Positions 3,057 to 58,085 of a DNA stretch of 64,000 nt are shown here, piece after piece. How positions within the stretch are numbered: position 1 is the first letter of the stretch; each line of letters opens with the position of its first letter. The translations under genes were made by a program, and so were the position numbers. Origin of the DNA: a virus. Lineage: Duplodnaviria; Heunggongvirae; Uroviricota; Caudoviricetes. Location: IMG/VR virus record IMGVR_UViG_3300023082_000008, positions 1-64,000 of that record. The stretch is one strand, 5' to 3'. The notes under the pieces were generated by a model that was not told the origin of the DNA, did no database searches, and saw only the letters and a program-made list of their open reading frames with translations.

Positions 3057-3479
3057 ATGGAAGAAATAAGAAGTTTTACGGGAGAACATTTCTTCCTCTC
3101 TAACTTCTACCGTGAAAATGGTTCGACGGTAGAACACCGCTTCCAAGCAGCCAAGACCGATCGAATCCATGAAAAGGAACAGATCATGGCTGCTCCAACA
3201 CCAGCCAAGGCAAAGTATTGGGGTAGACGCTGCACCATGAGACCTGACTGGGAGACCGAGAAGGTCAACGTCATGTATCACCTAGTCAAGAACAAGTTTA
3301 GTCACCCCGATTTGGGCCGACGTTTGCTTGAGACGGGCGACGCTTATTTGGTTGAGGGAAACACATGGGGAGATAAATTCTGGGGCGTAGAGACCGATTC
3401 TGGTGAGGGCGAGAACCATCTGGGTATGATTCTGATGCGTGTTCGTGAGGAGTTGACACGGCACCAGCCCCTCGTGTAG
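3057..3479 (+). CDS. NADAR-domain protein (YbiA/DUF1768 family; ADP-ribose or NAD-derivative N-glycosidase type)
   Basis: FFLSNFY...VEHRFQAAK...EQIMAAPTPAKAKYWGRRC...GNTWGDKFWG are NADAR family hallmarks. ATG at 3057 follows the TGA at 3053-3055. Confidence 0.7.
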   Translation: MEEIRSFTGEHFFLSNFYRENGSTVEHRFQAAKTDRIHEKEQIMAAPTPAKAKYWGRRCTMRPDWETEKVNVMYHLVKNKFSHPDLGRRLLETGDAYLVEGNTWGDKFWGVETDSGEGENHLGMILMRVREELTRHQPLV

Positions 3480-4868: not shown

Positions 4869-5204
4869 ATGAAGCGTTGCGGTTTTTGTGGAGAGAACAA
4901 GTCACTGGACCAGTACCGAATGAGGAAGACCCCTCCTATTCAACATTATGCTTACTGTAACTCTTGTGTGTATCATGCTTCAAAGAACAAGGCTAGTTAT
5001 AGCGAAGATGTGCGAGTGATGAGAGAGAAGGCTATTTCTATGCGTGCCTTTACTCCTGATCAAGATAAAGAAATTTACATTCGGGTCCTTTCTGGTACTC
5101 CTAGAACTGTCATTGCTTCCGAACATGGGGTGTCAAATTCATGTGTAGGCAAAGCCTTTAAGCGGGGTCGCTCAATGGAAATCAAAGAGCAAATGAAAAG
5201 TTGA
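4869..5204 (+). CDS. hypothetical Cys-rich protein
   Basis: 111-aa ORF starting MKRCGFCGE...CNSC, with zinc-finger-like Cys pairs. Confidence 0.55.
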   Translation: MKRCGFCGENKSLDQYRMRKTPPIQHYAYCNSCVYHASKNKASYSEDVRVMREKAISMRAFTPDQDKEIYIRVLSGTPRTVIASEHGVSNSCVGKAFKRGRSMEIKEQMKS

Positions 5205-9049: not shown

Positions 9050-9931
9050 ATGTTCACTGATGAAATTCAGGTTGCATATACCACAAAGTTTGTGCATCCT
9101 TCAAATATGCTACCGACTCGTAACGATTTGGTAAAATTCAACGCTGATCTAGGATCATACCCAGACGGTATGCCCTTTATCAAGCAAGACGCTGTTCGTG
9201 ATCTGCACAAGGCAGACCTTACAGTCGTTATTCGCCAGAAGAGCCTAGAGTCGTTCGTTACCGGCCTGTTTATGGTGGATGCCCTACGCGAACGAGGCAA
9301 CTTTGTTCGCAAGTTGGTGCTGCCATTCATTCCCGCAGCACGACAGGATCGGATCAACCCCGAGGGAGATTATCTCTTTACCCTCAAGTCCGTTGCGAAG
9401 ATGATCAATGATCGCAACTTTGATGAGGTTGTTGTCCTTGATCCTCACAGCACAGTGGCCACGGCTCTTATTGACCGTGTCCGCGTTTTCCCAATCGCAG
9501 ATATGCTGCACAAGTTCTGGGTTGGATATGACGCTGTCATCGCTCCCGATAAGGGCGCGGTAGGACGTGCACAGGAAGCAGCCGATGCCCTAAACATCAT
9601 TAACGGAACCAACATGCCCGTTATCCACGCAGACAAGACACGTGACGTTGCTACTGGCAAGTTGACCGGGTTCGATGTTAGCGTAGAGGCAGGCAAGCAC
9701 TACCTTGTCTTTGACGATATTTGCGACGGTGGTGGTACCTTTATTGGTCTTGGAGACAAGATCGTACAGCAAGGTGCTTCGGCTGGACTCTTCGTCACCC
9801 ATGGTGTATTCTCCAAGGGCACAGGAGTGCTAAGCAACATTTACGGTGCAATTACAACAACAGACTCCACACTATTCGACAAGCACGACGTTCGGGTCAT
9901 CCCGGTCGTTGAAAGGATGATCATTTCATGA
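9050..9931 (+). CDS. prs: ribose-phosphate pyrophosphokinase (PRPP synthetase)-like
   Basis: VVLDPHS and LVFDDICDGGGT (PRPP-binding loop) motifs. Classic phage pairing directly upstream of nadV with ATGA overlap. Confidence 0.75.
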   Translation: MFTDEIQVAYTTKFVHPSNMLPTRNDLVKFNADLGSYPDGMPFIKQDAVRDLHKADLTVVIRQKSLESFVTGLFMVDALRERGNFVRKLVLPFIPAARQDRINPEGDYLFTLKSVAKMINDRNFDEVVVLDPHSTVATALIDRVRVFPIADMLHKFWVGYDAVIAPDKGAVGRAQEAADALNIINGTNMPVIHADKTRDVATGKLTGFDVSVEAGKHYLVFDDICDGGGTFIGLGDKIVQQGASAGLFVTHGVFSKGTGVLSNIYGAITTTDSTLFDKHDVRVIPVVERMIIS

Positions 9932-11388
9932 GCGCAGCAGACGCACTATTTTACACAGACGGTTACAAGTTGGGTCACATTCACATGTACCCCGAGAAGA
10001 CAGAGTTTGTTCTGTCCAACTTCACTCCCCGTACCAGCCGCATCAAGGATATCGACAATGTCGTGTTCTTCGGTCTACAGCACTGGCTGGCTGAGACGCT
10101 GGGTGAAACGTGGGGTCGCTTCTTCGCTGGTGACATTGAAGAGATTGTCGCTGAGTACGAGGACTTCCTGTCCAACTACCTCGGACCCAACACGGTTGGT
10201 TCGCAGCAGTGGCGCGACCTGCACGCTCTGGGCTACCTGCCACTAGAATTCCGCGCGGTACCTGAGGGTTCCAGCGTTCCCCTGCGAGTTCCTATGTTTA
10301 CCGTAGAGAACACGCACAAGGACTTCTACTGGCTGGTGAACTACCTTGAGACCAGCATGTCCAACGCTCTGTGGATGCCTTGCACGTCGGCAACCATTGC
10401 CAAGCGTATGCGCACAATGCTGAATGAAAAGGCACTCAAGACCGGCAAGACGGTAGATGACGTGGCATTTGGTGGTCATGATTTCTCCATGCGCGGTATG
10501 AGCGGACTTGATGCCTGCCAGACCAGCGGAGCAGCACACCTTGTTTCCTTTACGGGAAGTGACAGCCTGCCTGCCATTCGATTTGTTAAGAAGTTCTACC
10601 CAACCGATTCGTTCATTGGTGGTGGCGTTCCTGCAACTGAGCATGCCGTGATGTGCGCGGGCGGTAAGGAATCCGAGATTGAGACATTCCGTCGTCTTCT
10701 TCGTGACAACCCCACAGGTATCCTAAGTGTTGTTTCTGACACATGGGACCTATGGCGAGTACTCACGGTCTACCTGCCAGAACTCAAGGATGAGATTATG
10801 GCTCGTGAGGGCACGCTGGTTATTAGACCAGACTCCGGTAACCCTTCGAATATCCTGATGGGTGATCCGGACGCTGAGGCAGGCTCGCCAGCATCCAAGG
10901 GTGTTGTCAACCTGCTCGCAGAGGTCTTCGGAACCACGACCAACGAGGCAGGATTCAAGAGCCTTGACAGCCATGTCGGTGCTATTTACGGTGATTCGAT
11001 TAACTTCGAGCGTGCCGACGATATCACCAACCGTCTGATTGAGCAGGGCTACGTTGCTACGCAGGTTGTTCTGGGAATGGGTAGTTACGGCTACCAGATG
11101 AACACTCGTGACACGTTCGGCTTCGCTATCAAGGCGACGAATGTCGTTATTGATGACGTCGAGACGCCCATCTTCAAGGACCCGATCACGGACGACGGCA
11201 CGAAGAAGTCTCTCAAGGGACGTATCGCGGTGTTCGAAAACTCTAGTGGTGAGTTGGCGGTTGCAGACAATCAGGCTCCGGGCAGTGCAATGCTGGATAA
11301 CAGCCTGCTCAAGCCGGTATGGAGAAACGGAAAGTTCATCAAGGAATACACCTTTGATGAGGTCCGTGAAAATGCCCTCCGAGCATAG
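9928..11388 (+). CDS. nadV: nicotinamide phosphoribosyltransferase (NAMPT/NadV)
   Basis: Full-length similarity to NAMPT: DGYK at the N-terminus, FGLQ, AVPEG, FTVENT, DFSMRG, AHLVSF and IRPDSGNP blocks. Confidence 0.9.
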   Translation: MSAADALFYTDGYKLGHIHMYPEKTEFVLSNFTPRTSRIKDIDNVVFFGLQHWLAETLGETWGRFFAGDIEEIVAEYEDFLSNYLGPNTVGSQQWRDLHALGYLPLEFRAVPEGSSVPLRVPMFTVENTHKDFYWLVNYLETSMSNALWMPCTSATIAKRMRTMLNEKALKTGKTVDDVAFGGHDFSMRGMSGLDACQTSGAAHLVSFTGSDSLPAIRFVKKFYPTDSFIGGGVPATEHAVMCAGGKESEIETFRRLLRDNPTGILSVVSDTWDLWRVLTVYLPELKDEIMAREGTLVIRPDSGNPSNILMGDPDAEAGSPASKGVVNLLAEVFGTTTNEAGFKSLDSHVGAIYGDSINFERADDITNRLIEQGYVATQVVLGMGSYGYQMNTRDTFGFAIKATNVVIDDVETPIFKDPITDDGTKKSLKGRIAVFENSSGELAVADNQAPGSAMLDNSLLKPVWRNGKFIKEYTFDEVRENALRA

Positions 11389-11895: not shown

Positions 11896-12102
11896 ATGAA
11901 AATTAGGCCACTCAGCCGCAGGATGGAAAATTTTCTGTTTATTTCAATCGTGTTAATTGTTGTACTAGTAATTCCAACAATTATAGTTGCTTACACATAT
12001 GAAGAAAAGCCAAGTTCTCACCAACAGTGCCGAGTCGCTAACGGCCAGTGGGTTGACGGACCTGCAACGCGCCCGTACTGCATCTACCCTAGGGGATATT
12101 AA
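11896..12102 (+). CDS. small membrane/secreted hypothetical protein
   Basis: 68-aa ORF with TM segment FLFISIVLIVVLVIPTIIVAY and Cys residues in the C-terminal part. Confidence 0.5.
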   Translation: MKIRPLSRRMENFLFISIVLIVVLVIPTIIVAYTYEEKPSSHQQCRVANGQWVDGPATRPYCIYPRGY

Positions 12103-12542
12103 TGAAGGTTACAGAAATTCAGGGTGATCTATTTGCAGACCTTAAGGTAGGTGATGCAGTAGCGCATGGAGCGAACTGCCGTGGAATCATGGGAGCCGGT
12201 GTGGCAAAAGCAATCAAGGCCAAATTCCCCCAGAACTTTAATTACTACAATCAGTTTTGCAATCGAGATATGTTTAAGCCCGGAGACATTATCCCTTTTC
12301 AGGAAAATGGCTTTGTAATCTACAACCTTGGCACTCAGTATGAACTCGGTGCTGATGCCAAGGTTGAAAACGTCAGGGTCTCTGTCCGTTCCATGGTTTC
12401 TCACGCAGCGACATACACGGACCTTAAGCAGATCAAGACCGTGCGTCTGGGCTGTGGAATCGGTGGTCTGGACTGGGACGAAGTGAAGCCGGTACTTGAA
12501 GAGATTCCCTCGGAACTAGAATTAATCGTTTATTACTTCTAA
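12102..12542 (+). CDS. macro-domain protein (ADP-ribose binding or hydrolase)
   Basis: GDLF...AHGANCRGIMGAGVA is the macro-domain nucleotide-binding loop. 146 aa, typical length for a stand-alone macro domain. Confidence 0.7.
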   Translation: MKVTEIQGDLFADLKVGDAVAHGANCRGIMGAGVAKAIKAKFPQNFNYYNQFCNRDMFKPGDIIPFQENGFVIYNLGTQYELGADAKVENVRVSVRSMVSHAATYTDLKQIKTVRLGCGIGGLDWDEVKPVLEEIPSELELIVYYF

Positions 12543-23726: not shown

Positions 23727-23916
23727 TGATAAATGGGGTGAGCACCAGCACGAAGTTTCAGTGCCGGGAAGACCTTATGATCCATCTAGGCCGATCACTT
23801 GCGCTTCCTGCATCAATAGGCTAGACTCTTCCATGAACGCATGGTTAGACAAACTGACCAAGCGCGAGAATCTCCCTCCCAAATTCTGGGACGGATACAA
23901 GTTTTCTTGGAGTTAA
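23717..23916 (+). CDS. small Cys-containing hypothetical protein
   Basis: 66-aa ORF containing CASCINRL. Confidence 0.4.
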
Positions 23917-40157: not shown

Positions 40158-40291
40158 AGCACAAGAAAGACATAGTAAAAGTAGAAAGACAGGCATTGCT
40201 TGATATTTTTCGCTTTGCCAGAGATGAAGGTCCAAATGACATCACATTCCAAATGTCATTGCTGGACGTTGCGGAGGCGCTGTCCAAGTGA
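40154..40291 (+). CDS. small hypothetical protein (45 aa)
   Basis: ATGA overlap. Operon-consistent. Confidence 0.3.
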   Translation: MKHKKDIVKVERQALLDIFRFARDEGPNDITFQMSLLDVAEALSK

Positions 40292-43984: not shown

Positions 43985-44656
43985 ATGACAAACAACCCAT
44001 TCAGCGATATTTTTGGGGAAGAGCCCAAAAATACAGGGCCAATCGTGAAGAATGCACCCGCAAACTTCATGGTTTTGAACCAACTCAACCCTTTCTTGGC
44101 AGGGACAAAGGGATTTGTGGCTGGTGGAGTGTTCAAAAACATCTTTACGCAGACACCTTTTAGAGATGTCGACGTATTCTTTCGCTCGGAGGCTGACTTC
44201 AACGAGGCTGACCGTGATTTTGAGGACATTCAAAACCTAGAATTGATTTATGAGAACGACAAGGTACGTGCATTCCGTAAGAACGGTGTGCGTGTTGAGT
44301 TGATTCGTCACACATTTGGTGAGCCACAGGACTTGCTGACCAACTTTGACTTCACAATTACGAAGTTTGCGTATGGTTTTGCTCTTCCTGACCCCAATTC
44401 CACTGAAAAAGTGCAGATTACACCTCGTTTTGTATGGCATCACGAAGATTTCTTCGAGCACTTGGCCATGAAGCGCCTTGTGATTGATGATAGACTGGTT
44501 TTGCCTGTCAATTCTTGGGAAAGATCGTACAAGTATGCTCGTCAAGGCTACAATCTGTGCAAGGACAGCAAGATTACCCTGCTCAGTGAGATTATTCGAC
44601 GCGGACCGGTAGAGGAAAGCGATCTACAGGCTGGCCTATACGCAGGGATTGACTAA
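43985..44656 (+). CDS. Pol-beta-superfamily nucleotidyltransferase (second NTase, distinct from the CCA enzyme)
   Basis: GFVAGGVFKNIFTQTPFRDVDVFF fits the hG[GS]-x(9-13)-Dh[DE]h NTase signature. 223 aa. Confidence 0.55.
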   Translation: MTNNPFSDIFGEEPKNTGPIVKNAPANFMVLNQLNPFLAGTKGFVAGGVFKNIFTQTPFRDVDVFFRSEADFNEADRDFEDIQNLELIYENDKVRAFRKNGVRVELIRHTFGEPQDLLTNFDFTITKFAYGFALPDPNSTEKVQITPRFVWHHEDFFEHLAMKRLVIDDRLVLPVNSWERSYKYARQGYNLCKDSKITLLSEIIRRGPVEESDLQAGLYAGID

Positions 44657-51725: not shown

Positions 51726-52192
51726 AGCCGGGCGGTATGAATAGACCAACTGATACATAGAAGAACTAAGAGATGCTATAGAGCATATGCCTGTTTGATA
51801 ACTTAACACAGACTGTCACAACCTCCCACATGTGTTAAGACCTGTGGCTGTGTGCATGACAGTGAAAAGATGCTACTTGTGATCAATGCTTCGCTGTTCT
51901 ACGGACATTGGATACCTAAAAAGAGTCCAATCCAAGTGTAGTTTGTCCAGTATGTGAGATATGATCTATCGAATAACGATAGATAGATATTTAGGTGTAA
52001 TAGATCAATAACATAAAAAGGCTCTTTTTTCCCTCCAATTGCAGTGTTTTTTGGCCATAGCGTTCAAAAGTTGGCCAAAACTGCCACAATTTGTACTAAA
52101 AGTGTAACATTTTGAACATTTTCCACAATTGCGACAAATATAGCCAATTTAGAGGCCAATTAGAGAAATTGTAGCGGCGCCCAGCAGTTTTT

Positions 52193-52270
52193 CAAAATCC
52201 CCAGAAATTCAAAAGACCCTTGTAATATGTACAAAATCCCCAGAAATTTGAAAAGTCCCTGTAATATGTA
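52193..52270 (+). repeat. tandem 39-bp direct repeat (2 copies) in an AT-rich non-coding region
   Basis: CAAAATCCCCAGAAATT(C/T)GAAAAG(A/T)CCCT(T)GTAATATGTA occurs twice in tandem. Confidence 0.7.
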
Positions 52271-52457
52271 ACTCATATGTGAGATACGGGTCAGGATTTT
52301 CCCCGGGGTCAGATCAACCAAAACAGGCCAAATCTACAATCCTACCCGATCCGTGAGATATTTTCAACCCATTTGCCACATTTTGAGACAAAATCTTTCC
52401 TGTCCACACTCTGAGACAGGACTATACAGGCCGATACAGAGTGTGTATGTTTGACCT

Positions 52458-52721
52458 ATGAGCACACAAACAGTTTACGCAAACATCTCTACCGGCCGCC
52501 TTGCAGCAAGGGTCGCCACCGACGACGCCTCGCTTGTGTCCGTATGGATTCCCAACGGTCCGGTGCTGGGGTTCTACAAGTTGAGCCGATTCGGTGGAGC
52601 GCTTTCCTCTAAGAGGCTTGCCAGACTTTTCGAGGCCAAGTGTGCGGGATGCTTTCACGCTACGGGTGGACGCTACAAGGGATGCCCGACAAGACAGAAT
52701 GGCACGCCGAACTACAACTAG
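52458..52721 (+). CDS. hypothetical protein
   Basis: 87-aa ORF downstream of the palindrome sites at 52376-52418. Confidence 0.45.
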   Translation: MSTQTVYANISTGRLAARVATDDASLVSVWIPNGPVLGFYKLSRFGGALSSKRLARLFEAKCAGCFHATGGRYKGCPTRQNGTPNYN

Positions 52722-52857
52722 ACAACCATCCATCCATAGGCTAAGATCGAACCATGATGCAAAACATCCTCGCAGTTCTTCCCTACATGGTAGGTTTGGC
52801 ATTCGTCGCCGCTACCGTCGCTCTCGCAGCGCACATGATTGAAAAGGATATGAGAAA

Positions 52858-53088
52858 ATGAGTTACACTCTCGGTTTCTTCGAACTGTCCGACGATCTAG
52901 CGCATGATCCGGACCCGGTGGAACTCTCCCACGGTGAGAATGTTACGCTACTCATGCGCGAGGCCATGGAAAAGTACAGTGTGCATACGTGGCGATTCGA
53001 CGGCGATTGCTGGGAGTCGGATAACACAACCCGATTCAATCACTCCCGTTGTGCAGGACGTTTTTACGTCATGGACAATTTCGACTAG
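52858..53088 (+). CDS. hypothetical protein
   Basis: 76-aa ORF. A strong hairpin at 53105-53147 follows. Confidence 0.45.
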   Translation: MSYTLGFFELSDDLAHDPDPVELSHGENVTLLMREAMEKYSVHTWRFDGDCWESDNTTRFNHSRCAGRFYVMDNFD

Positions 53089-53364
53089 TCCACCCTCTAG
53101 GGTTGAGAGGGAAGGGAAAATTTGTGGTGGATTTTCCCTTCCCCTCCCCGCACATGTGTGCTAGGATCAAGTCATGAAAACTTACCTGGTGGCAGTGCTC
53201 GGATATGACTATGACAGTGACGAAAGGGTCACCCTGTCATTCTTTGTCGAGGCCGGTAGCCATGAAAAGGCTAAAGACATAGTAGGATCATACAATCGTG
53301 TACGTACCCTTGAAAGGGTTACATTCATGGAAGCAAAACAACTCTAATCCTTTAAGGGGAATTC

Positions 53365-53580
53365 ATGTTTAAGACAATTGATACCGTACCGGCCCATACG
53401 TTGGAAGCGGGTGACGTATTCGATTCGGACAGTGACGGTATTGTTACTGTCGTGTCAGTTGATGATGAAGGTGACAATCTGACCGTTACTGCAACGGATT
53501 CTTTCGATGATACAATCGAATTCACCTTGAATCCCATTCGGGATATTCCTATTCTTCAAGAAGTAGATGACGAAGAATAA
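53365..53580 (+). CDS. acidic hypothetical protein
   Basis: 71-aa ORF. A 57-aa ORF at 53174-53347 precedes it. Confidence 0.45.
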   Translation: MFKTIDTVPAHTLEAGDVFDSDSDGIVTVVSVDDEGDNLTVTATDSFDDTIEFTLNPIRDIPILQEVDDEE

Positions 53581-53583
53581 TTG

Positions 53584-53632
53584 TCCACATTCTGAGACAG
53601 ACCTTGACAGGCTTAGACAGAGAGCATAGTCT
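53584..53632 (+). promoter_or_regulatory. palindrome site TCCACATTCTGAGACA plus promoter TTGACA-17-TAGTCT
   Basis: Inverted repeat at 53584-53599. TTGACA 53604-53609, TAGTCT 53627-53632. ATG of the downstream gene at 53639. Confidence 0.55.
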
Positions 53633-53638
53633 TTAGTC

Positions 53639-54193
53639 ATGAACACAGACACCGCAGTCAGGAACATCATCGCTACCGCCCGCAAGGCTACTGCCGCAGA
53701 GATTGAAGCGGGTGCCGAATGGTACGGCGTGGCACATGACGCTGCCAAGGATATGTCGTCTCTCGAAATGGGTGCGGGTGTGATTGCAGCACTGTCACCT
53801 ATGATGGGATGGGATCGAAACGTCATGCTTGCATACCGCGCATTCGCAGACGGAACAGCGTCCGGTGCTATGGGTGCCAGCGTCCGTAAGGCTAATGCAA
53901 TCATGACCGGAAACGACCCCCTGGACATTCTCGGCGGTGCTAAGGTACGATCGTTCTATGCAAACATCGTCAACCCTATGGGCGCGGACGTGACCATTGA
54001 TCGGCACGCGTTCGATATCGTTTACGGTCGTGCTACCGACGACAAGACTCGTGGCATTCTGTCCCGCAAGGGCATGTATGAGTTGCACGCCGACGCGTAC
54101 AGGCAGGCCGGTATGATGCTGGGTGGACTCACTGGCGCACAAATGCAGGCCATTACCTGGGTTGCGTGGCGCCGCATTAAGGGGATCAAGTGA
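53639..54193 (+). CDS. hypothetical protein
   Basis: 184-aa ORF. Confidence 0.6.
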   Translation: MNTDTAVRNIIATARKATAAEIEAGAEWYGVAHDAAKDMSSLEMGAGVIAALSPMMGWDRNVMLAYRAFADGTASGAMGASVRKANAIMTGNDPLDILGGAKVRSFYANIVNPMGADVTIDRHAFDIVYGRATDDKTRGILSRKGMYELHADAYRQAGMMLGGLTGAQMQAITWVAWRRIKGIK

Positions 54194-54288
54194 GATATGC
54201 GCAATATTGTTGCGTTTGTGGATGCTTGCATGAACATGACTTGCATAGGCCTAAGTCACCCAAACCTACATACCCACCAAGATTCTAA

Positions 54289-54338
54289 TCTCACATACTG
54301 AGACACCACTATACAAACCTCACACGATAGGCTACACT
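54289..54338 (+). promoter_or_regulatory. palindrome TCTCA-CATAC-TGAGA plus weak-minus-35 promoter TATACA-17-TACACT
   Basis: Inverted repeat 54289-54305. TATACA 54310-54315, TACACT 54333-54338. A small basic ORF at 54346-54492 follows. Confidence 0.5.
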
Positions 54339-54491
54339 AGAACCATGAAGAACAACCGTCGCCCCCAGACCCCCAAGTCCACCCCGCGCGCATTCGCTGG
54401 CAAGTACCGCGAATCGGACGACTTCAACACACCTACCGCGCGGTACGATCGTTCCGACGATCGTCGCGCTCGACAGAACGGATACAAGTAA

Positions 54492-54866
54492 ATGACAAAT
54501 ACGTATGCTCTAGGCATTAACGAAACAAATGCAGATACACACCTATGGATTAAGGTGGACGGTCCAGACAATGAGATTGTCTTTACCTCATTCGCCGAAG
54601 CCCTTAAGTCGAATGTTGAGGGATCGTTTGCAGTAGCAGACGTCATTGCAAACCTTAAGGCCGATCACCTTAAGATTCTGGCTATCTATGTCGATAGCGT
54701 TCCTACCGTCGATCATACTCCGCATCTTTTCAGTGAGGCAGACCTCAGCGTTACCCTATTCGATAAGGAATCGGGTGACTACCTAGTCACTCGTGGCATT
54801 GAGTCGTGGGCCGGTATCTATGGCGTACGTGTCACGGTCCCTGACCATGGTATCAGTGTCCACTAG
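54492..54866 (+). CDS. hypothetical protein
   Basis: 124-aa ORF. A rho-independent terminator at 54886-54920 follows. Confidence 0.55.
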   Translation: MTNTYALGINETNADTHLWIKVDGPDNEIVFTSFAEALKSNVEGSFAVADVIANLKADHLKILAIYVDSVPTVDHTPHLFSEADLSVTLFDKESGDYLVTRGIESWAGIYGVRVTVPDHGISVH

Positions 54867-54885
54867 TCCTAGCACATAAGTCTAT

Positions 54886-54920
54886 CCCCTGTCTATACCG
54901 GCAGGGGATTTTCTTTTCTC
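54886..54920 (+). terminator. rho-independent terminator
   Basis: CCCCTG-TCTATACCGG-CAGGGG followed by ATTTTCTTTTCTC. Confidence 0.65.
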
Positions 54921-54929
54921 AAATTTCTA

Positions 54930-54979
54930 TCTCAACATGTGAGATAGAGGTAGACAGGGCATGATATCCCTAGTATTGT
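54930..54979 (+). promoter_or_regulatory. palindrome TCTCA-ACATG-TGAGA plus TAGACA promoter
   Basis: Inverted repeat 54930-54944. TAGACA 54951-54956. A -10 candidate TATTGT 54974-54979. Confidence 0.45.
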
Positions 54980-55019
54980 TCTATTTGTAAGGAAAACACA
55001 CACTCACAAAGGGAAAATC

Positions 55020-55274
55020 ATGCGTATCACTCGCAAGATGGTCGATGCTCGGATCGAATCGGTCAACGTTCTTTTGGGCCACGGTGAGAATCCGGCCTAT
55101 AGCACGGTGGGCGCGGTTACTCTCGGTTCCGCCTACGGTGGATACAGGGTGGAACGATACTGCAATGATGCCGGGGCGGTCTCGACTCTCACCAATGGAT
55201 ATGGTACTCTGCGAGAGGCCTATGGTTTCTTGCAGGGCATGCTTTCCGGTCTGAGAATCTCGAAGGAGATTTAA
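55020..55274 (+). CDS. hypothetical protein
   Basis: 84-aa ORF. Confidence 0.5.
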   Translation: MRITRKMVDARIESVNVLLGHGENPAYSTVGAVTLGSAYGGYRVERYCNDAGAVSTLTNGYGTLREAYGFLQGMLSGLRISKEI

Positions 55275-55324
55275 TCTCACATTCTGAGATTCCACTAGAC
55301 AAGCCAATCAGGATAGGCTAGATT
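55275..55324 (+). promoter_or_regulatory. palindrome TCTCA-CATTC-TGAGA plus promoter TAGACA-17-TAGATT
   Basis: Inverted repeat 55275-55289. TAGACA 55296-55301, TAGATT 55319-55324. ATG at 55331. Confidence 0.55.
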
Positions 55325-55330
55325 AGAGAC

Positions 55331-55675
55331 ATGAAAACAAACACCGCAAGAGAATACCTCGTCGGAAAGGGCCTCGCAAAGGCCGGACGGGGAAAGTTCT
55401 CCAACGCTGCAAAAGAGCACCTGTCGGAAGCAATCGCCGCCGGTATGGTATTCTCTGATTACTCTGAAAAGGGTTCATCTGCTAAGGTGAACATGACAGA
55501 AGAATCGTACGAAATTGCTCCCATGACGTGGCCCAATGGGTCCGCCCGATTTGTCGAAAACGGCAAAAAAATTTCCATGAAAAGTGCTTGCAATTCATGC
55601 GGATACAGTCTAGGCTGGTGTGAGTGCGCAACGCCTCGTGTCTACAGTAAGGTCGTGGTCATATCAGCAAACTAA
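55331..55675 (+). CDS. hypothetical protein with C-terminal Cys cluster
   Basis: 114-aa ORF with CNSCGYSLGWCEC. Confidence 0.5.
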   Translation: MKTNTAREYLVGKGLAKAGRGKFSNAAKEHLSEAIAAGMVFSDYSEKGSSAKVNMTEESYEIAPMTWPNGSARFVENGKKISMKSACNSCGYSLGWCECATPRVYSKVVVISAN

Positions 55676-55868
55676 GCAAGGCCGCAAATGTGGGAATTTA
55701 CGGTGCCGCGTCAACTGTTGCACTGGCACTGATTATTCCCGCTGCGATTCTGTTCGGATTGTTCGCAGTCTTTTTGAAGGCACTTGTCTAAAAGACTTGA
55801 TTCGAACGCGAAACACTGATACACTCAAAACACACCGCAAAACACACACTCATAGAAAAGAGAATCAC

Positions 55869-56189
55869 ATGTCGAACAACACCAACGCCCCCGTCCTGGT
55901 CTCCGCTTCCTACGTCCGCGATTGGGCCGTCCGTACCGGTCTCCGGTCCGCTGAGGCCAAGGTCATCGGAAAGTTGACCAACGCCGAGGTTTCGGCTTTC
56001 AACAGCAAGCACAAGAGCAAGGCGTACAAGCCCGGCCAGGCTCCGGCGAGTACCATCGCCGTCAAGGTCGGTCGAAAGGTTGTCCACGTCGAGAGTGCCA
56101 CGCTGCGGTCCGCGATCGGTGCCGGTAAGCGTGGAAAGGTCAACGCGAGCAAGGCCGCTGAGTACGTCATCGGTGCCGGTCTGGTCTGA
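55869..56189 (+). CDS. possible Lsr2-like DNA-binding protein
   Basis: SYVRDWAVRTGLRSAEAKVIGKLTNAEV resembles the Lsr2 DNA-binding helix region [23 protein letters not shown]. Basic, 106 aa. Confidence 0.3.
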   Translation: MSNNTNAPVLVSASYVRDWAVRTGLRSAEAKVIGKLTNAEVSAFNSKHKSKAYKPGQAPASTIAVKVGRKVVHVESATLRSAIGAGKRGKVNASKAAEYVIGAGLV

Positions 56190-56207
56190 TACGGGCCAAA
56201 AAGTTTT

Positions 56208-56250
56208 GAGAAAAATTCTCCCTAGAACTTCCCTAGGGAGAATTTTTCTG
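56208..56250 (+). terminator. bidirectional terminator palindrome
   Basis: GAGAAAAATTCTCCCTAG...CTAGGGAGAATTTTTCT: a perfect 18-bp inverted repeat flanked by A- and T-runs. Confidence 0.65.
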
Positions 56251-56293
56251 TTATGCTAGTTTTACAAGCCAATCACGAACAGAGGAAAATGAA

Positions 56294-56503
56294 ATGAAGT
56301 CCACTATTGCTACCATCGTTGTCGCCCTGTCTTTTGTTGTCGTTTCCCCGGCCTCGTCTGCGGATGCGCACGAAAGCGGTAAGCGGACCGAAACCGTGTA
56401 CGGAAAGATCAAGATGAACAAGACAAGCAAGTTCATCTGCAAGGGCAACACGTTCGATTCTGCTCCTTCGGGTCGCCTCTGCAAGACCAACAAGTGGCAG
56501 TAA
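56294..56503 (+). CDS. small secreted protein
   Basis: Signal peptide MKSTIATIVVALSFVVVSPASSADA. 69 aa with two Cys. Confidence 0.5.
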   Translation: MKSTIATIVVALSFVVVSPASSADAHESGKRTETVYGKIKMNKTSKFICKGNTFDSAPSGRLCKTNKWQ

Positions 56504-56719
56504 AAAAGTGGCCGGTAGGACTAGACACCTACCGGCCACTAGGCTAGACTCTAGATATGAACACAAACACAAGCGGACAGACCGACTACTGCGACTACTG
56601 CGAAACTACGGTTACGATCGTAGACGACTCCATCGAATCTGACGACATGGGTTTTGAGTATCATGTTTACATGTTTTCTTGTGGCCACGATTCCGCCCTG
56701 AAATTGTTCTAAAAAGATT

Positions 56720-56749
56720 CCCCAATCTGCGGATTGGGGCTTTCTTTTG
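56720..56749 (+). terminator. rho-independent terminator
   Basis: CCCCAATC-TGCG-GATTGGGG followed by CTTTCTTTTG. Confidence 0.65.
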
Positions 56750-56791
56750 CTCCGATTCTGTACTAGGATGGGTTTGGTGCCTGAAAATAAA

Positions 56792-56843
56792 TCTCACTAT
56801 GTGAGATGGCCCTATACAGGGTGGCCGGTATGTGCATAGAAAA
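56792..56843 (+). promoter_or_regulatory. palindrome TCTCA-CTATG-TGAGA plus TATACA promoter
   Basis: Inverted repeat 56792-56806. TATACA 56813-56818. Upstream of the 56940 gene. Confidence 0.45.
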
Positions 56844-56939
56844 TTCAAAGATATTCAAAATAGGGCTTGCATAGACTATCCCCATACCCTAGACTGTAGA
56901 TACAAGGTAACAACAACCCACACACACATAGGACATACC

Positions 56940-57287
56940 ATGCTCAACCTTGATACCTACTACTACGGCACCGGATACAAGGGCACCAATGCGGTGGCCT
57001 ATGAGACGGGTACGGGTGTGCAGGCGGTAGCAGTAGGGGATACTATGGCCGATGCAGTGCACAAGATGACTATGTGTGCTAGTGATGATGAAACAAACAT
57101 CATTGACTATGTGTGGATGGATGCAGCACAACATGTCTCATATGTCTCTCTCATGAACGCATATGATGGATGCCGCGTCGCTTGCGACTCATGCAACGAC
57201 CCGGTGACGCTTGAAGTTGTCGACTGGATCGACGCGCGGGGCACGTGCGAGTCTTGCGGTAGTGAGGTGACTTACTACGACTTCTAA
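56940..57287 (+). CDS. Cys-rich hypothetical protein
   Basis: 115-aa ORF with several Cys pairs in the C-terminal half. Last + strand gene before the strand switch. Confidence 0.5.
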   Translation: MLNLDTYYYGTGYKGTNAVAYETGTGVQAVAVGDTMADAVHKMTMCASDDETNIIDYVWMDAAQHVSYVSLMNAYDGCRVACDSCNDPVTLEVVDWIDARGTCESCGSEVTYYDF

Positions 57288-57294
57288 GGCATGT

Positions 57295-57326
57295 GGGAGG
57301 CCCGCTAAGGGCCTCCCATTCCTTTT
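57295..57326. terminator. bidirectional terminator between convergent gene blocks
   Basis: GGGAGGCCC-GCTAA-GGGCCTCCC followed by ATTCCTTTTAGG. Lies between the + strand gene ending at 57287 and the - strand gene ending at 57438. Confidence 0.65.
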
Positions 57327-57437: not shown

Positions 57438-58085
57438 TTACTTTGTATCGACGCCGCGCATGTCAACGCCATTTCTTAACTTGCTGACAATGACTTTTGA
57501 GACTCCGTACTTTTCTGCCATAGACTTTCCAGAACCACGACTGTATGGTTTTGTGAGGATATCTGCTACAGCCTCAGGAGAGAGTTTGCTACGATACTGT
57601 TGGCGAGGTATGTTTCGATTCTCTCCACCGGTATAGAATTCAAAAGACCGACCGGTAAGGATTCTTCTAACCAGTTCTTCTGAGACATTGTACTGCTGTG
57701 CCAAGTCAACGACCATTGTCTTAGTAATGGGAGAATTGTAAATGTTCTTCACGTCTTTGATCGGAAGAAGATTGTGTCCTCTTTCCTTTGACAATTTATC
57801 GTCACTGTTGACCTTGGCTGTGCCTAGAAAAAGATGTTCGGGACGAACACATTTTCGATTGTCACACTTGTGGCACACCTGAAATCCTGTAGGATCACCA
57901 TTGAAAACCTCGTATGTTATCCTGTGAGCGCCAATGGTTTTTTGTCTACCCGTGAAGTCGCGCAGATTTCCGTATCCCGTGCGAGTGTTCTTGGTCCACT
58001 CCCAGCAGTGCCCCAGTTCCGGTCGCACGATGGTACCAGTTTTGTCAACGTTATCCCAGAACCAGTCTGGTATTAAAATAGTCAT
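57438..58085 (-). CDS. HNH homing endonuclease (HNH_3 type)
   Basis: [15 protein letters not shown]...[11 protein letters not shown]...[18 protein letters not shown] core with a C-terminal DNA-binding region. Confidence 0.7.

What the first reader, a model, noticed from the sequence alone, without database searches (positions are those of the whole stretch)
52271..56843. Family of at least 7 promoters carrying a conserved palindrome TCTCA-N5-TGAGA immediately upstream of a weak -35 (TATACA/TAGACA): a likely activator- or repressor-controlled regulon
Seven instances lie within 4.6 kb: 52272-52283, 52376-52390, 52403-52418, 53584-53599, 54289-54305, 54930-54944, 55275-55289 and 56792-56806. Each is a 5-bp inverted repeat with a 4-5 nt spacer. 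It sits 10-15 nt upstream of a -35-like hexamer that deviates from TTGACA (TATACA, TAGACA) while the -10 stays TAG/TAC-like. Each copy precedes a small gene. The palindrome centres near -45 to -50, which is where class I/II activators or phage middle-gene regulators bind. The more than 25 other promoters in the window, with perfect TTGACA, lack the palindrome. That contrast suggests a dedicated temporal class dependent on a phage-encoded dimeric DNA-binding protein. Candidates include the WhiB-like (40288) or Lsr2-like (55869) proteins or an HTH protein elsewhere.
Basis: seen in the sequence. Interest (0 to 1): 0.75.

Follow-up and report, generated by a model that had tools for sequence, protein, structure and literature searches.

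The report
Operator-like dyad on phage promoter cassettes
A 5-kb block of small genes in an uncultivated actinobacterial phage is driven by promoters that each carry the same 15-17-bp palindrome at a fixed position just upstream, most likely the docking site of an unidentified phage regulator; the motif is real and conserved, but it belongs to a familiar kind of phage gene control.

Summary
The exact TCTCA-N5-TGAGA occurs 4 times (0.12 expected by chance). A matrix built from 26 sites in five related phages finds 8 sites in the window, all non-coding and all within 51945-56806, plus one stray weak hit. Six sit upstream of a promoter-like element. In 24 of 25 clade sites with a detectable promoter, TGAGA is followed by exactly 6 nt, a -35 hexamer, 17-18 nt (17 in all but one), then TAnnnT. 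About 20 of the 25 have ATG 6 nt after the -10, so the mRNAs would be leaderless. The dyad centre is then at about -49. The motif recurs at orthologous intergenic spots in four relatives, where it is better conserved than the -35. There is no RNA covariation and no T-run. The 28 perfect TTGACA promoters elsewhere in the window lack it. The dyad-bearing promoters usually have a damaged -35 (TAGACA, TATACA, TTCCCA). Sister lineages without the dyad keep TTG in the -35. Best reading: the binding site of a dimeric, probably phage-encoded regulator that contacts RNA polymerase, with activation favoured over repression. The regulator was not identified. No helix-turn-helix (HTH) protein was detected in about 79 kb, and about 47 kb of the genome was not seen. 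This is a new member of a known kind.

The parts
51945..51959 (+). Orphan dyad site GTCCAGTATGTGAGA (14.6 bits), with no promoter next to it, about 450 bp upstream of the first cassette.
   Evidence: Matrix scan. The same site is present in L015 at 7814, L017 at 1070 and L019 at 1992. It is an invariant block in alignment A3.
52374..52388 (+). Auxiliary site TGCCACATTTTGAGA (16.7 bits), 28 nt upstream of the site at 52402.
   Evidence: Orthologous copies lie 27-37 nt upstream of the first cassette in L015, L017 and L019.
52402..52460 (+). Cassette 1: dyad GTCCACACTCTGAGA (52402-52416), -35 TATACA (52423-52428), -10 TATGTT (52446-52451), leaderless ATG at 52458 (an 87-aa gene that differs between relatives).
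53583..53641 (+). Cassette 2: dyad GTCCACATTCTGAGA (53583-53597), -35 TTGACA (53604-53609), -10 TAGTCT (53627-53632), leaderless ATG at 53639 (DUF7178 gene, 53639-54193).
   Evidence: Footprint A2 across 5 phages.
54289..54347 (+). Cassette 3: dyad TCTCACATACTGAGA (54289-54303), -35 TATACA (54310-54315), -10 TACACT (54333-54338), leaderless ATG at 54345 (48-aa basic protein, then a 124-aa protein at 54492-54866).
54884..55022 (+). Cassette 4: intrinsic terminator 54884-54909, dyad TCTCAACATGTGAGA (54930-54944), -35 TAGACA (54951-54956), -10 TATTGT (54974-54979), a 40-nt leader, ATG at 55020 (84-aa protein).
   Evidence: The leader is conserved in L015, L017 and L019.
55275..55333 (+). Cassette 5: dyad TCTCACATTCTGAGA (55275-55289), starting right after the stop codon of the upstream gene; -35 TAGACA (55296-55301), -10 TAGATT (55319-55324), leaderless ATG at 55331. 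The gene encodes a 114-aa protein with an Lsr2-like N-terminal domain and a four-cysteine C-terminus.
   Evidence: Footprint A1. The orthologous sites in L015 and L017 are the two highest-scoring in the clade (28.9 and 27.1 bits).
56792..56841 (+). Cassette 6, probably decayed: dyad TCTCACTATGTGAGA (56792-56806), -35-like TATACA (56813-56818), only ATAGAA where the -10 should be. A separate TTGCAT-17-TAGACT promoter follows and serves the gene at 56940-57287.
   Evidence: In L015 the orthologous site drives a leaderless gene.
52719..52756 (+). Promoter of the same class without a dyad: TAGACA-17-TAAGAT, 6 nt, ATG at 52754.
   Evidence: Orthologues in L015 and L017.
56507..56559 (+). Promoter of the same class without a dyad: TAGACA-17-TAGACT, 6 nt, ATG at 56557. 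Its -35 lies in the loop of the hairpin at 56507-56540.
52458..57287 (+). The regulated module: about 15 small + strand genes. They include DUF7178 and two proteins with Lsr2-like DNA-binding domains. The module ends at the terminator 57293-57319, where it meets a block of - strand genes.
52271..52285 (+).
   Evidence: Below the matrix threshold. Two relatives read TGTGATA there and the third lacks the element.

Best explanation
The element is a 15-17-bp dyad with core TCTCA-N5-TGAGA, extended to (A/G)TCTCAC-N3-GTGAGA(T/C). It serves as the binding site of a sequence-specific dimeric regulator, most likely encoded by the phage. It is built into promoter cassettes for the host's principal sigma factor, and most of these cassettes produce leaderless mRNAs.

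The site spans about -56 to -42, with its centre near -49. It never overlaps the -35 or the -10. I infer that the bound protein touches RNA polymerase (the alpha C-terminal domain or sigma region 4). This contact would switch on, as a group, promoters whose -35 is damaged (TAGACA, TATACA, TTCCCA). That would make the 52.4-57.3 kb small-gene module a separate temporal class from the 28 consensus TTGACA promoters elsewhere in the window.

Shown here: the motif, its fixed geometry, its conservation, its restriction to this module, and the absence of RNA covariation.

Inferred: that a protein binds, that it is a dimer, that the phage encodes it, and that the effect is activation.
For: Enrichment and clustering of the motif. 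All 8 window sites are non-coding and lie within 4.9 kb.

In 24 of 25 clade sites with a detectable promoter, a 6-nt gap separates TGAGA from the -35, and the spacer to TAnnnT is 17-18 nt (17 in all but L056). A random control gives 3% (the automatic count was 23, and L015 11697 was corrected by eye).

The motif sits at orthologous intergenic positions in L015, L017, L018 and L019. There the dyad and the -10 are conserved while the flanks and the -35 drift.

Either arm can be the degenerate one, as expected for a true dyad read by a dimer.

There is no compensatory change: 70.4% of cells are paired, equal to the shuffled value. The hairpins are weak and have no T-run.

Only 1 of 6 dyad-linked promoter-like elements in the window has TTGACA, against 28 dyad-less perfect TTGACA promoters.

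In sister lineages that lack the dyad, all 10 leaderless promoters keep TTG in the -35, against 7 of 19 in the dyad clade (Fisher p = 0.001).

Two independent cases outside the clade (L042 at 914, and the orthologous pair L054 at 3181 / L055 at 2490) carry the site 10-11 bp further upstream, on the same helical face.

The composite pattern gives only 3 hits in 596 Gb of prokaryote genomes, none from an actinobacterium. It gives 31 hits in viral contigs, which collapse to about four independent sites.
Against: No binding protein was identified. No HTH or RHH protein was detected in the roughly 79 kb of the genome that I could read; the PHROGs batch scans of the window listed only 25 of 43 and of 51 matched families. 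About 47 kb was not seen.

Two promoters of the same class (52719, 56522) have TAGACA but no dyad, so a weak -35 alone does not require the site.

The auxiliary sites at 52374 and 51945 are not in helical phase with a promoter. The 52374 site and its orthologues lie 27-37 nt upstream of the cassette-1 site in the different phages.

In actinobacteria many promoters work with little or no -35, so 'weak' is an assumption.

A centre at -49 is not a classical position for class I or class II activators.

Transcription starts are predicted, not mapped.

The -35 comparison with the sister lineages was chosen after the fact.
Confidence: 0.45

Rival explanations
1. The same site acts as a repressor operator. 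A phage-encoded dimer binds at every junction of the module and shuts it off. It could do so by holding or excluding RNA polymerase from the upstream side. It could also block read-through from the upstream gene, as a shut-off of early genes or an immunity-like control.
For: The first cassette has several sites plus a distal one (51945, 52374, 52402), which recalls phage control regions. A conserved TGAGATA half-site lies in the spacer of a conserved - strand promoter-like element at 52367..52339. Dyad-less TAGACA promoters exist, so these promoters may be active on their own. The sites lie at gene junctions, where a bound protein would also act as a roadblock. The module's content of small genes and Lsr2-like proteins looks like an early or host-takeover set.
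Against: In more than 25 cases the operator never overlaps the -35, the spacer, the -10 or +1, which is where steric repressors usually sit. The strict 6-nt register, and the +10/11 variants, point to a contact that depends on the helical face. The -35 is less conserved than the dyad. No integrase or repressor gene was seen in the readable part of the genome.
Confidence: 0.3
2. The dyad has no protein partner of its own. It is the conserved core of a mobile terminator/promoter cassette, like the PeSL cassettes of T4-type phages. On this view it is kept similar by recombination between cassettes, which shuffles small genes.
For: Gene content differs between relatives exactly at cassette borders. 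The first gene is different in every genome, and L019 has extra cassette-plus-gene units at 4915 and 5409. Sister lineages carry 6-10 copies of a conserved terminator hairpin plus promoter in the same module. Some window cassettes follow an intrinsic terminator. PeSL precedent: PMC2839356, PMC4122927.
Against: Homology outside the 15-17 bp and the promoter hexamers is low between cassettes, so the conserved part is too short to drive homologous recombination. The invariant TGAGA, the exact register with the -35, and conservation at orthologous sites while the flanks drift all indicate selection on the sequence itself. This reading can be true together with protein binding.
Confidence: 0.1
3. 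The palindrome acts as RNA: a hairpin at the 3' end of the upstream transcript that terminates, stabilises or marks it for processing.
For: It can fold, at -3.3 to -12.5 kcal/mol. It often starts right after a stop codon. In sister lineages real terminator hairpins occupy a similar place.
Against: No T-run follows it on the + strand. The stems are weak. 30% of cells are unpaired and covariation equals the shuffled value. The GTCCA variant breaks pairing without compensation. There is no Rfam match. Separate intrinsic terminators precede the cassettes at 54930 and 56792.
Confidence: 0.05
4. A host factor reads the site. Candidates are host DnaA, because the variant arm TTGTCCACA equals the actinobacterial DnaA box, or another conserved actinobacterial regulator. 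Another version has the phage WhiB-like protein bound to sigma region 4 reading the promoter-proximal TGAGAYA.
For: TTGTCCACA at 53581 and CTGTCCACA at 52400. The same composite occurs in phage contigs from 39% to 66% GC that share few genes with this one. WhiB is the only annotated transcription factor in the window. The proximal arm is invariant.
Against: DnaA-like 9-mers are not enriched (23 against 20 expected). The GTCCA arm interconverts with TCTCA at orthologous sites. The composite is nearly absent from 596 Gb of prokaryote genomes. Some sites keep only the distal arm, which argues against a reader of the proximal arm alone.
Confidence: 0.1

Closest known systems
Activator-dependent phage promoters with an upstream dyad (P2/P4 Ogr/Delta late promoters with a dyad near -55; Mu Mor middle promoter; phi29 p4; lambda CI at PRM). 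From my own knowledge.
   Same: A dyad at a fixed position just upstream of a sub-optimal -35. Several promoters are switched together.
   Different: The sequence, the host clade (actinobacteria), the centre at about -49 and the leaderless transcripts all differ. The activator is unknown here and activation is not shown.
17-bp palindromic repeat 5'-TGTTCGGNNNCCGAACA of Cluster O mycobacteriophages (PMC4351075)
   Same: Actinobacteriophage. The geometry is the same 7-3-7, 17 bp in all. There are many copies, enriched in intergenic regions of a small-gene block.
   Different: The Cluster O repeat has more than 30 copies spread over the genome. A third of them lie inside genes and most are not near promoters, so the authors thought a transcriptional role unlikely. 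Here there are 8 copies in 5 kb, all non-coding, and 6 are locked to a promoter at one register. The sequences are unrelated.
PeSL (promoter-early stem-loop) cassettes of T4-type phages (PMC2839356, PMC4122927)
   Same: Short conserved composite motifs placed in front of small, variable genes of unknown function. Gene gain and loss occurs at the cassette borders.
   Different: In a PeSL the stem-loop is a terminator. Here the dyad is not a terminator and shows conservation of sequence, not of structure. The sister lineages L057, L061 and L064 are the closer PeSL analogue.
Stoperators of Cluster A mycobacteriophages (L5 gp71; PMC9283540, PMC6550527)
   Same: Many copies of one short site in short intergenic regions of an actinophage. 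One phage protein reads them and controls a whole gene block.
   Different: Stoperators are 13-14 bp, asymmetric and oriented with transcription. A monomeric repressor reads them, they occur across the whole genome, and they are not tied to promoters.
Lambdoid 17-bp operators (own knowledge) and the conserved inverted repeats of phiC31 (own knowledge)
   Same: 17-bp dyads with half-sites one helical turn apart, read by dimers.
   Different: Lambdoid operators overlap the promoters they repress. No site resembling this dyad exists in phiC31 (no matrix hit at 10 bits or more).

Membership tests
Promoters of the principal sigma factor (sigma-70/SigA type) | A -35 hexamer related to TTGACA, a 16-19 nt spacer, and a -10 of form TAnnnT | tested here: met
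   25 of 27 sites have TAnnnT 17-18 nt after a hexamer that averages 4.4 of 6 matches to TTGACA. This is prediction only; no transcription start was mapped.
Leaderless actinobacterial transcripts | The start codon coincides with the predicted +1, that is 6-7 nt after the -10, with no Shine-Dalgarno sequence | tested here: met
   ATG lies exactly 6 nt after the -10 in 4 of the 5 window cassettes that have a canonical -10, and in about 20 of 25 clade-wide. Not tested by experiment.
Operator or activator site of a dimeric DNA-binding protein | Dyad symmetry with half-sites about 10 bp apart; conservation of sequence rather than structure; a fixed place relative to the promoter | tested here: met
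Operator or activator site of a dimeric DNA-binding protein | A cognate binding protein is identified | tested here: not met
   No HTH, RHH or Cro/CI-like protein was detected in the roughly 79 kb read, and none appears among the 25 families listed in each PHROGs batch table.
Intrinsic terminator | A GC-rich stem followed by a T-run | tested here: not met
   The stems are 5-7 bp and AT-rich, and no T-run follows on the + strand.
Structured RNA element | Base pairs kept through compensatory changes | tested here: not met
   Covariation score 0.135 against 0.139 shuffled; 70.4% paired against 70.2% shuffled. No Rfam family matches.
PeSL-type terminator/promoter cassette | A terminator stem-loop and an early promoter in one conserved unit of about 70 bp that flanks variable ORFs | tested here: inconclusive
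   The promoter part and the variable flanking ORFs are present. The dyad itself is not a terminator. Only 2 of 6 window cassettes have a separate terminator just upstream.
Cluster A stoperator | A 13-14 bp asymmetric site, oriented with transcription and spread over the genome | tested here: not met
   The site here is symmetric and confined to 5 kb.
DnaA box cluster | Enrichment of TTGTCCACA-like 9-mers | tested here: not met
   23 matches with at most 1 mismatch against 20.3 expected.
phiC31 conserved inverted repeats | Sequence similarity to the repeats in the phiC31 genome | tested here: not met
   No matrix hit at 10 bits or more in NC_001978.

The most novel reading that the evidence does not exclude
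The dyad is the operator of a so far undescribed activator. That activator would define a temporal class of leaderless promoters in several lineages of uncultivated actinobacteriophages (39-66% GC). The operator-promoter units would double as mobile cassettes that shuffle host-takeover genes, making them an actinophage counterpart of PeSLs with a built-in switch.
Probability: 0.15. Interest if true: 0.65.

Novelty: new member of a known kind. Interest (0 to 1): 0.42.

Why it matters
The result gives a concrete, testable regulatory code for a group of large, tRNA-rich actinobacterial phages known only from metagenomes. It specifies a 17-bp probe, six promoters with exact predicted starts, and a defined regulated module that includes two proteins with Lsr2-like domains. 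If a binder is found, it would provide a portable operator/promoter pair for actinobacteria. It would also offer a way to time phage gene classes without transcriptomics. The contrast with sister lineages, which have a conserved terminator hairpin in place of the dyad and an intact -35, is a natural experiment on how phage promoter cassettes evolve.

Tried and rejected
- Megablast of the region against cultured phages found no match.
- A strict motif scan of viral contigs found nothing.
- Rfam gave only sub-threshold miRNA noise.
- Pfam, PHROGs and PDB sequence searches of the module proteins found no DNA-binding fold other than Lsr2-like domains.
- PHROGs scans of 122 other window proteins showed no regulator other than WhiB among the 25 families listed per scan.
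- The weak NikA-like RHH protein beside the DNA ligase in L015 and L019 has no counterpart in the readable part of this genome.
- The first gene after cassette 1 was considered as an autoregulated regulator. It is unrelated in every genome.
- phiC31 and the cultured relative Rhodococcus phage NiceHouse have no such site.
- DnaA boxes are not enriched.
- Some matrix hits proved to be coding-sequence coincidences multiplied by orthology: window 52925, L054 at 1224, and the tail-fibre hits of the L043 type.
- The hit at 23877 (TCCCA...TGGGA) is intergenic but lacks the invariant TGAGA and has no promoter, so I treat it as chance.
- Literature searches for phiC31 repeats or for this motif returned nothing usable.
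- No correlation between dyad score and -35 quality was visible by eye; I did not compute it.

Full report
**What the window is.** The window comes from a circularly permuted metagenome contig of 126,220 bp (ENA ERZ27228600, k141_1069415). It is about 48% GC. It has no close relative among cultured phages. Its rIIA-like protein is about 30% identical to those of large Streptomyces and Rhodococcus phages such as Coruscant, Tomas, Trina and NiceHouse. The window carries 36 tRNA genes, a WhiB-like gene at 40288 and proteins with Lsr2-like domains. It is therefore a large actinobacteriophage. Genes run on the + strand up to about 57.3 kb and on the - strand beyond that.

**Checking the observation.** The exact TCTCA-N5-TGAGA occurs four times, at 54289, 54930, 55275 and 56792, against 0.12 expected. 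No copy has a 4-nt spacer. Two further copies, at 52402 and 53583, have the left arm GTCCA.

I built a 21-nt position weight matrix from 26 sites in five related genomes. In the window it finds 13 hits at 14 bits or more when both strands are counted, which is 9 distinct loci, against 0.57 per shuffle. The loci are 51945, 52374, 52402, 53583, 54289, 54930, 55275 and 56792, plus an isolated hit at 23877. That last hit lacks the invariant TGAGA and has no promoter.

The eight clustered sites all lie in non-coding DNA, which makes up about 25% of the window. They span 4.9 kb. There are no hits in the 6.5 kb upstream of the window or the 8 kb downstream of it. In two of three relatives it reads TGTGATA rather than TGAGA, and it is absent from the third.

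**Anatomy.** For 27 clade sites I searched the 90 nt downstream for the best pair of -35 and -10 hexamers. 25 sites have a detectable promoter. In 24 of those the gap between TGAGA and the -35 hexamer is exactly 6 nt, and the spacer to TAnnnT is 17 nt in all but L056, where it is 18. The script scored 23; L015 11697 was mis-assigned by a tie and also has a 6-nt gap by eye. Random positions give this register 3% of the time.

About 20 of the 25 have ATG 6 nt after the -10. The predicted transcripts are therefore leaderless, a common arrangement in actinobacteria (my own knowledge). With +1 placed at that A, the dyad spans -56 to -42 and is centred at -49.

Window cassette 4 (54930) has a 40-nt leader instead. 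Cassette 6 (56792) has no proper -10 and looks decayed. Two promoters of the same style, at 52719 and 56522, have TAGACA but no dyad. Elsewhere on the + strand there are 29 TTGACA-N17/18-TAnnnT promoters. 28 of them have no dyad; their best upstream matrix score is -2.6 or lower. About half of these sit directly in front of tRNA genes.

**Relatives.** Homologues of the DUF7178 protein led to four related phage contigs at 65-77% protein identity. Each has the dyad at the orthologous intergenic positions with the same register. Alignments of orthologous intergenic regions show the dyad, the -10 and the ATG conserved, while the flanks, the 3' end of the upstream gene and much of the -35 vary.

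The left arm comes in two discrete forms, TCTCA(C) and GTCCA(C). The second is the first with one base deleted from TGTCTCAC. The two forms replace each other at orthologous sites. At the last site of the module, L015 and L017 keep the distal arm and have lost the proximal one. Both arms therefore matter, as expected for a dimer.

A 59%-GC relative, L056, has one copy with the same architecture. More distant relatives (35-41% identity for the 114-aa protein) lack the dyad. Instead they carry 6-10 copies per locus of a conserved GC-rich hairpin with T-runs (TTTTGCCCAMCAC...GTGKTGGGCATTTT), lying 13-25 nt upstream of leaderless promoters. This is a PeSL-like arrangement of terminator plus promoter (PMC2839356, PMC4122927).

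**Distribution beyond the clade.** The composite pattern (dyad, 6 nt, TWGACA) gives 31 loci in viral contigs. They collapse to about four independent sites. The first is an intergenic promoter of a family of phages with 39-40% GC and 105-120 kb genomes, with TAGACA-17-TATACA-like architecture (TAGACA-17-TATACT). The second is a coincidence inside a tail-fibre coding region. The third and fourth are L033 (66% GC) and L042 (53% GC, two sites). Three of the four have a proper -10 at the right distance.

L042 at 914, and the orthologous pair L054 at 3181 and L055 at 2490, have the site 10-11 bp further from the -10, which puts it on the same helical face. The same pattern has only 3 hits in 596 Gb of prokaryote genomes, and none is actinobacterial. 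The cultured relative NiceHouse and phage phiC31 have no such site.

**RNA or DNA.** The hairpins are weak, at -3.3 to -12.5 kcal/mol. They have no T-run. They show no covariation: 70.4% of cells are paired against 70.2% in shuffles, and the covariation score is 0.135 against 0.139. Rfam finds nothing. The conservation is therefore of sequence, which points to recognition as double-stranded DNA.

**Direction of control.** Several observations favour activation.
- The site never overlaps the core promoter in more than 25 cases.
- The register is fixed, and the only alternative registers seen are one helical turn away.
- The dyad is more conserved than the -35.
- Dyad promoters have a damaged -35: the TTG is kept in only 7 of 19 leaderless promoters. 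In the sister lineages without the dyad it is kept in 10 of 10 (p = 0.001). The same genome also has 28 perfect TTGACA promoters without the dyad.

Other observations favour repression, or at least weaken the case for activation.
- TAGACA promoters exist without a dyad.
- The first cassette has extra sites at 52374 and 51945 that are out of phase with the promoter.
- A conserved half-site lies in the spacer of a conserved leftward promoter-like element.
- The -35 is of limited importance in actinobacteria (my own knowledge).
- The -35 comparison was chosen after the fact.

I put activation at about 0.45 and repression at about 0.30.

**The reader protein.** It was not found. The precomputed Pfam annotation of about 79 kb of this genome shows no HTH or RHH protein. 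PHROGs scans of 122 window proteins show only WhiB among regulators, though only the top 25 matched families are listed per scan.

The module proteins have no DNA-binding hits other than Lsr2-like domains. The 114-aa protein matches phrog_6269 over residues 5-59. The L015 orthologue of the 106-aa protein carries PF23359. The best-scoring sites of the clade sit upstream of the 114-aa gene. Autoregulation by this protein is therefore a possibility, but Lsr2 domains bind the minor groove of AT-rich DNA (my own knowledge), which does not fit a GAGA-type dyad.

The first gene after cassette 1 is unrelated in every genome.

**Comparison with known systems.** The element works like the upstream dyads of activator-dependent phage promoters (P2 Ogr, Mu Mor, phi29 p4, lambda CI at PRM; my own knowledge). 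In form it resembles the 17-bp 7-3-7 palindrome of Cluster O mycobacteriophages. That repeat, however, is spread over the genome, is often inside genes and is mostly not near promoters (PMC4351075). It differs from stoperators, which are asymmetric, read by a monomer and found genome-wide (PMC9283540). It shares with PeSLs the role of a conserved cassette in front of variable small genes. Gene gain and loss among the relatives occurs at cassette borders.

**Verdict.** This is a real, conserved regulatory motif. Its geometry is now precisely defined and it belongs to a known kind of system. Novelty lies at the level of a new member of a known kind, and interest is moderate.

Noticed in passing
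window 51726-52457: A 730-bp non-coding region is conserved at 72% identity in four phages. It holds a 39-bp tandem repeat (52193-52270) and paired GGCCAATT motifs. It also has an invariant block that reads on the - strand as TTGAAA-17-TAGGAT, with a TGAGATA half-site in the spacer. It could be an origin of replication, a control hub or a small-RNA locus.
   Followed up: partly
window 975-37743: There are 36 tRNA genes. About half of the 28 consensus TTGACA-17/18-TAGACT promoters sit immediately upstream of tRNA genes, some starting right at the 3' end of the preceding tRNA.
   Followed up: partly
window 9050-11388, 12102-12542, 3186-3479: A ribose-phosphate pyrophosphokinase-like gene and a NAMPT/NAPRTase-like gene overlap by 4 bases (9050-9931 and 9928-11388), and Macro and NADAR domain genes lie nearby. 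The set resembles the phage NAD+ reconstitution and ADP-ribose counter-defence gene sets (my own knowledge).
   Followed up: no
window 43985-44656: A 223-aa protein has a Pfam Gad2 (PF26128) hit, which suggests an anti-Gabija counter-defence protein.
   Followed up: no
window 56507-56540: A 13-bp GC-rich hairpin carries the -35 hexamer (TAGACA) of the leaderless promoter at 56522 in its loop. It is a good terminator only for the - strand. It is conserved in L015 and L019.
   Followed up: partly
L057, L061, L064 (whole loci): Sister lineages have 6-10 copies per 8-14 kb of a conserved 27-30-bp hairpin, TTTTGCCCAMCAC-N-GTGKTGGGCATTTT, followed by TTGNNN-17-TAnnnT-6-ATG. These are PeSL-like terminator/promoter cassettes in actinophages. 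A second recurrent motif, ATTACGATA, also appears in them.
   Followed up: partly
window 53581-53589 and 52400-52408: The variant left arm of the dyad reads TTGTCCACA and CTGTCCACA, which matches the consensus DnaA box of high-GC Gram-positive bacteria (my own knowledge). Such 9-mers are not enriched overall.
   Followed up: yes
window 57438-58085 (- strand): An HNH homing-endonuclease-like gene with repeated HTH-like C-terminal motifs sits exactly at the convergence point of the + and - gene blocks. The same gene occupies the same place in L015.
   Followed up: no
window 52458-52721; L015 8325; L017 1583; L019 2496: The first gene downstream of the conserved control region is unrelated in every genome. 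It is a hypervariable slot behind a conserved promoter.
   Followed up: yes
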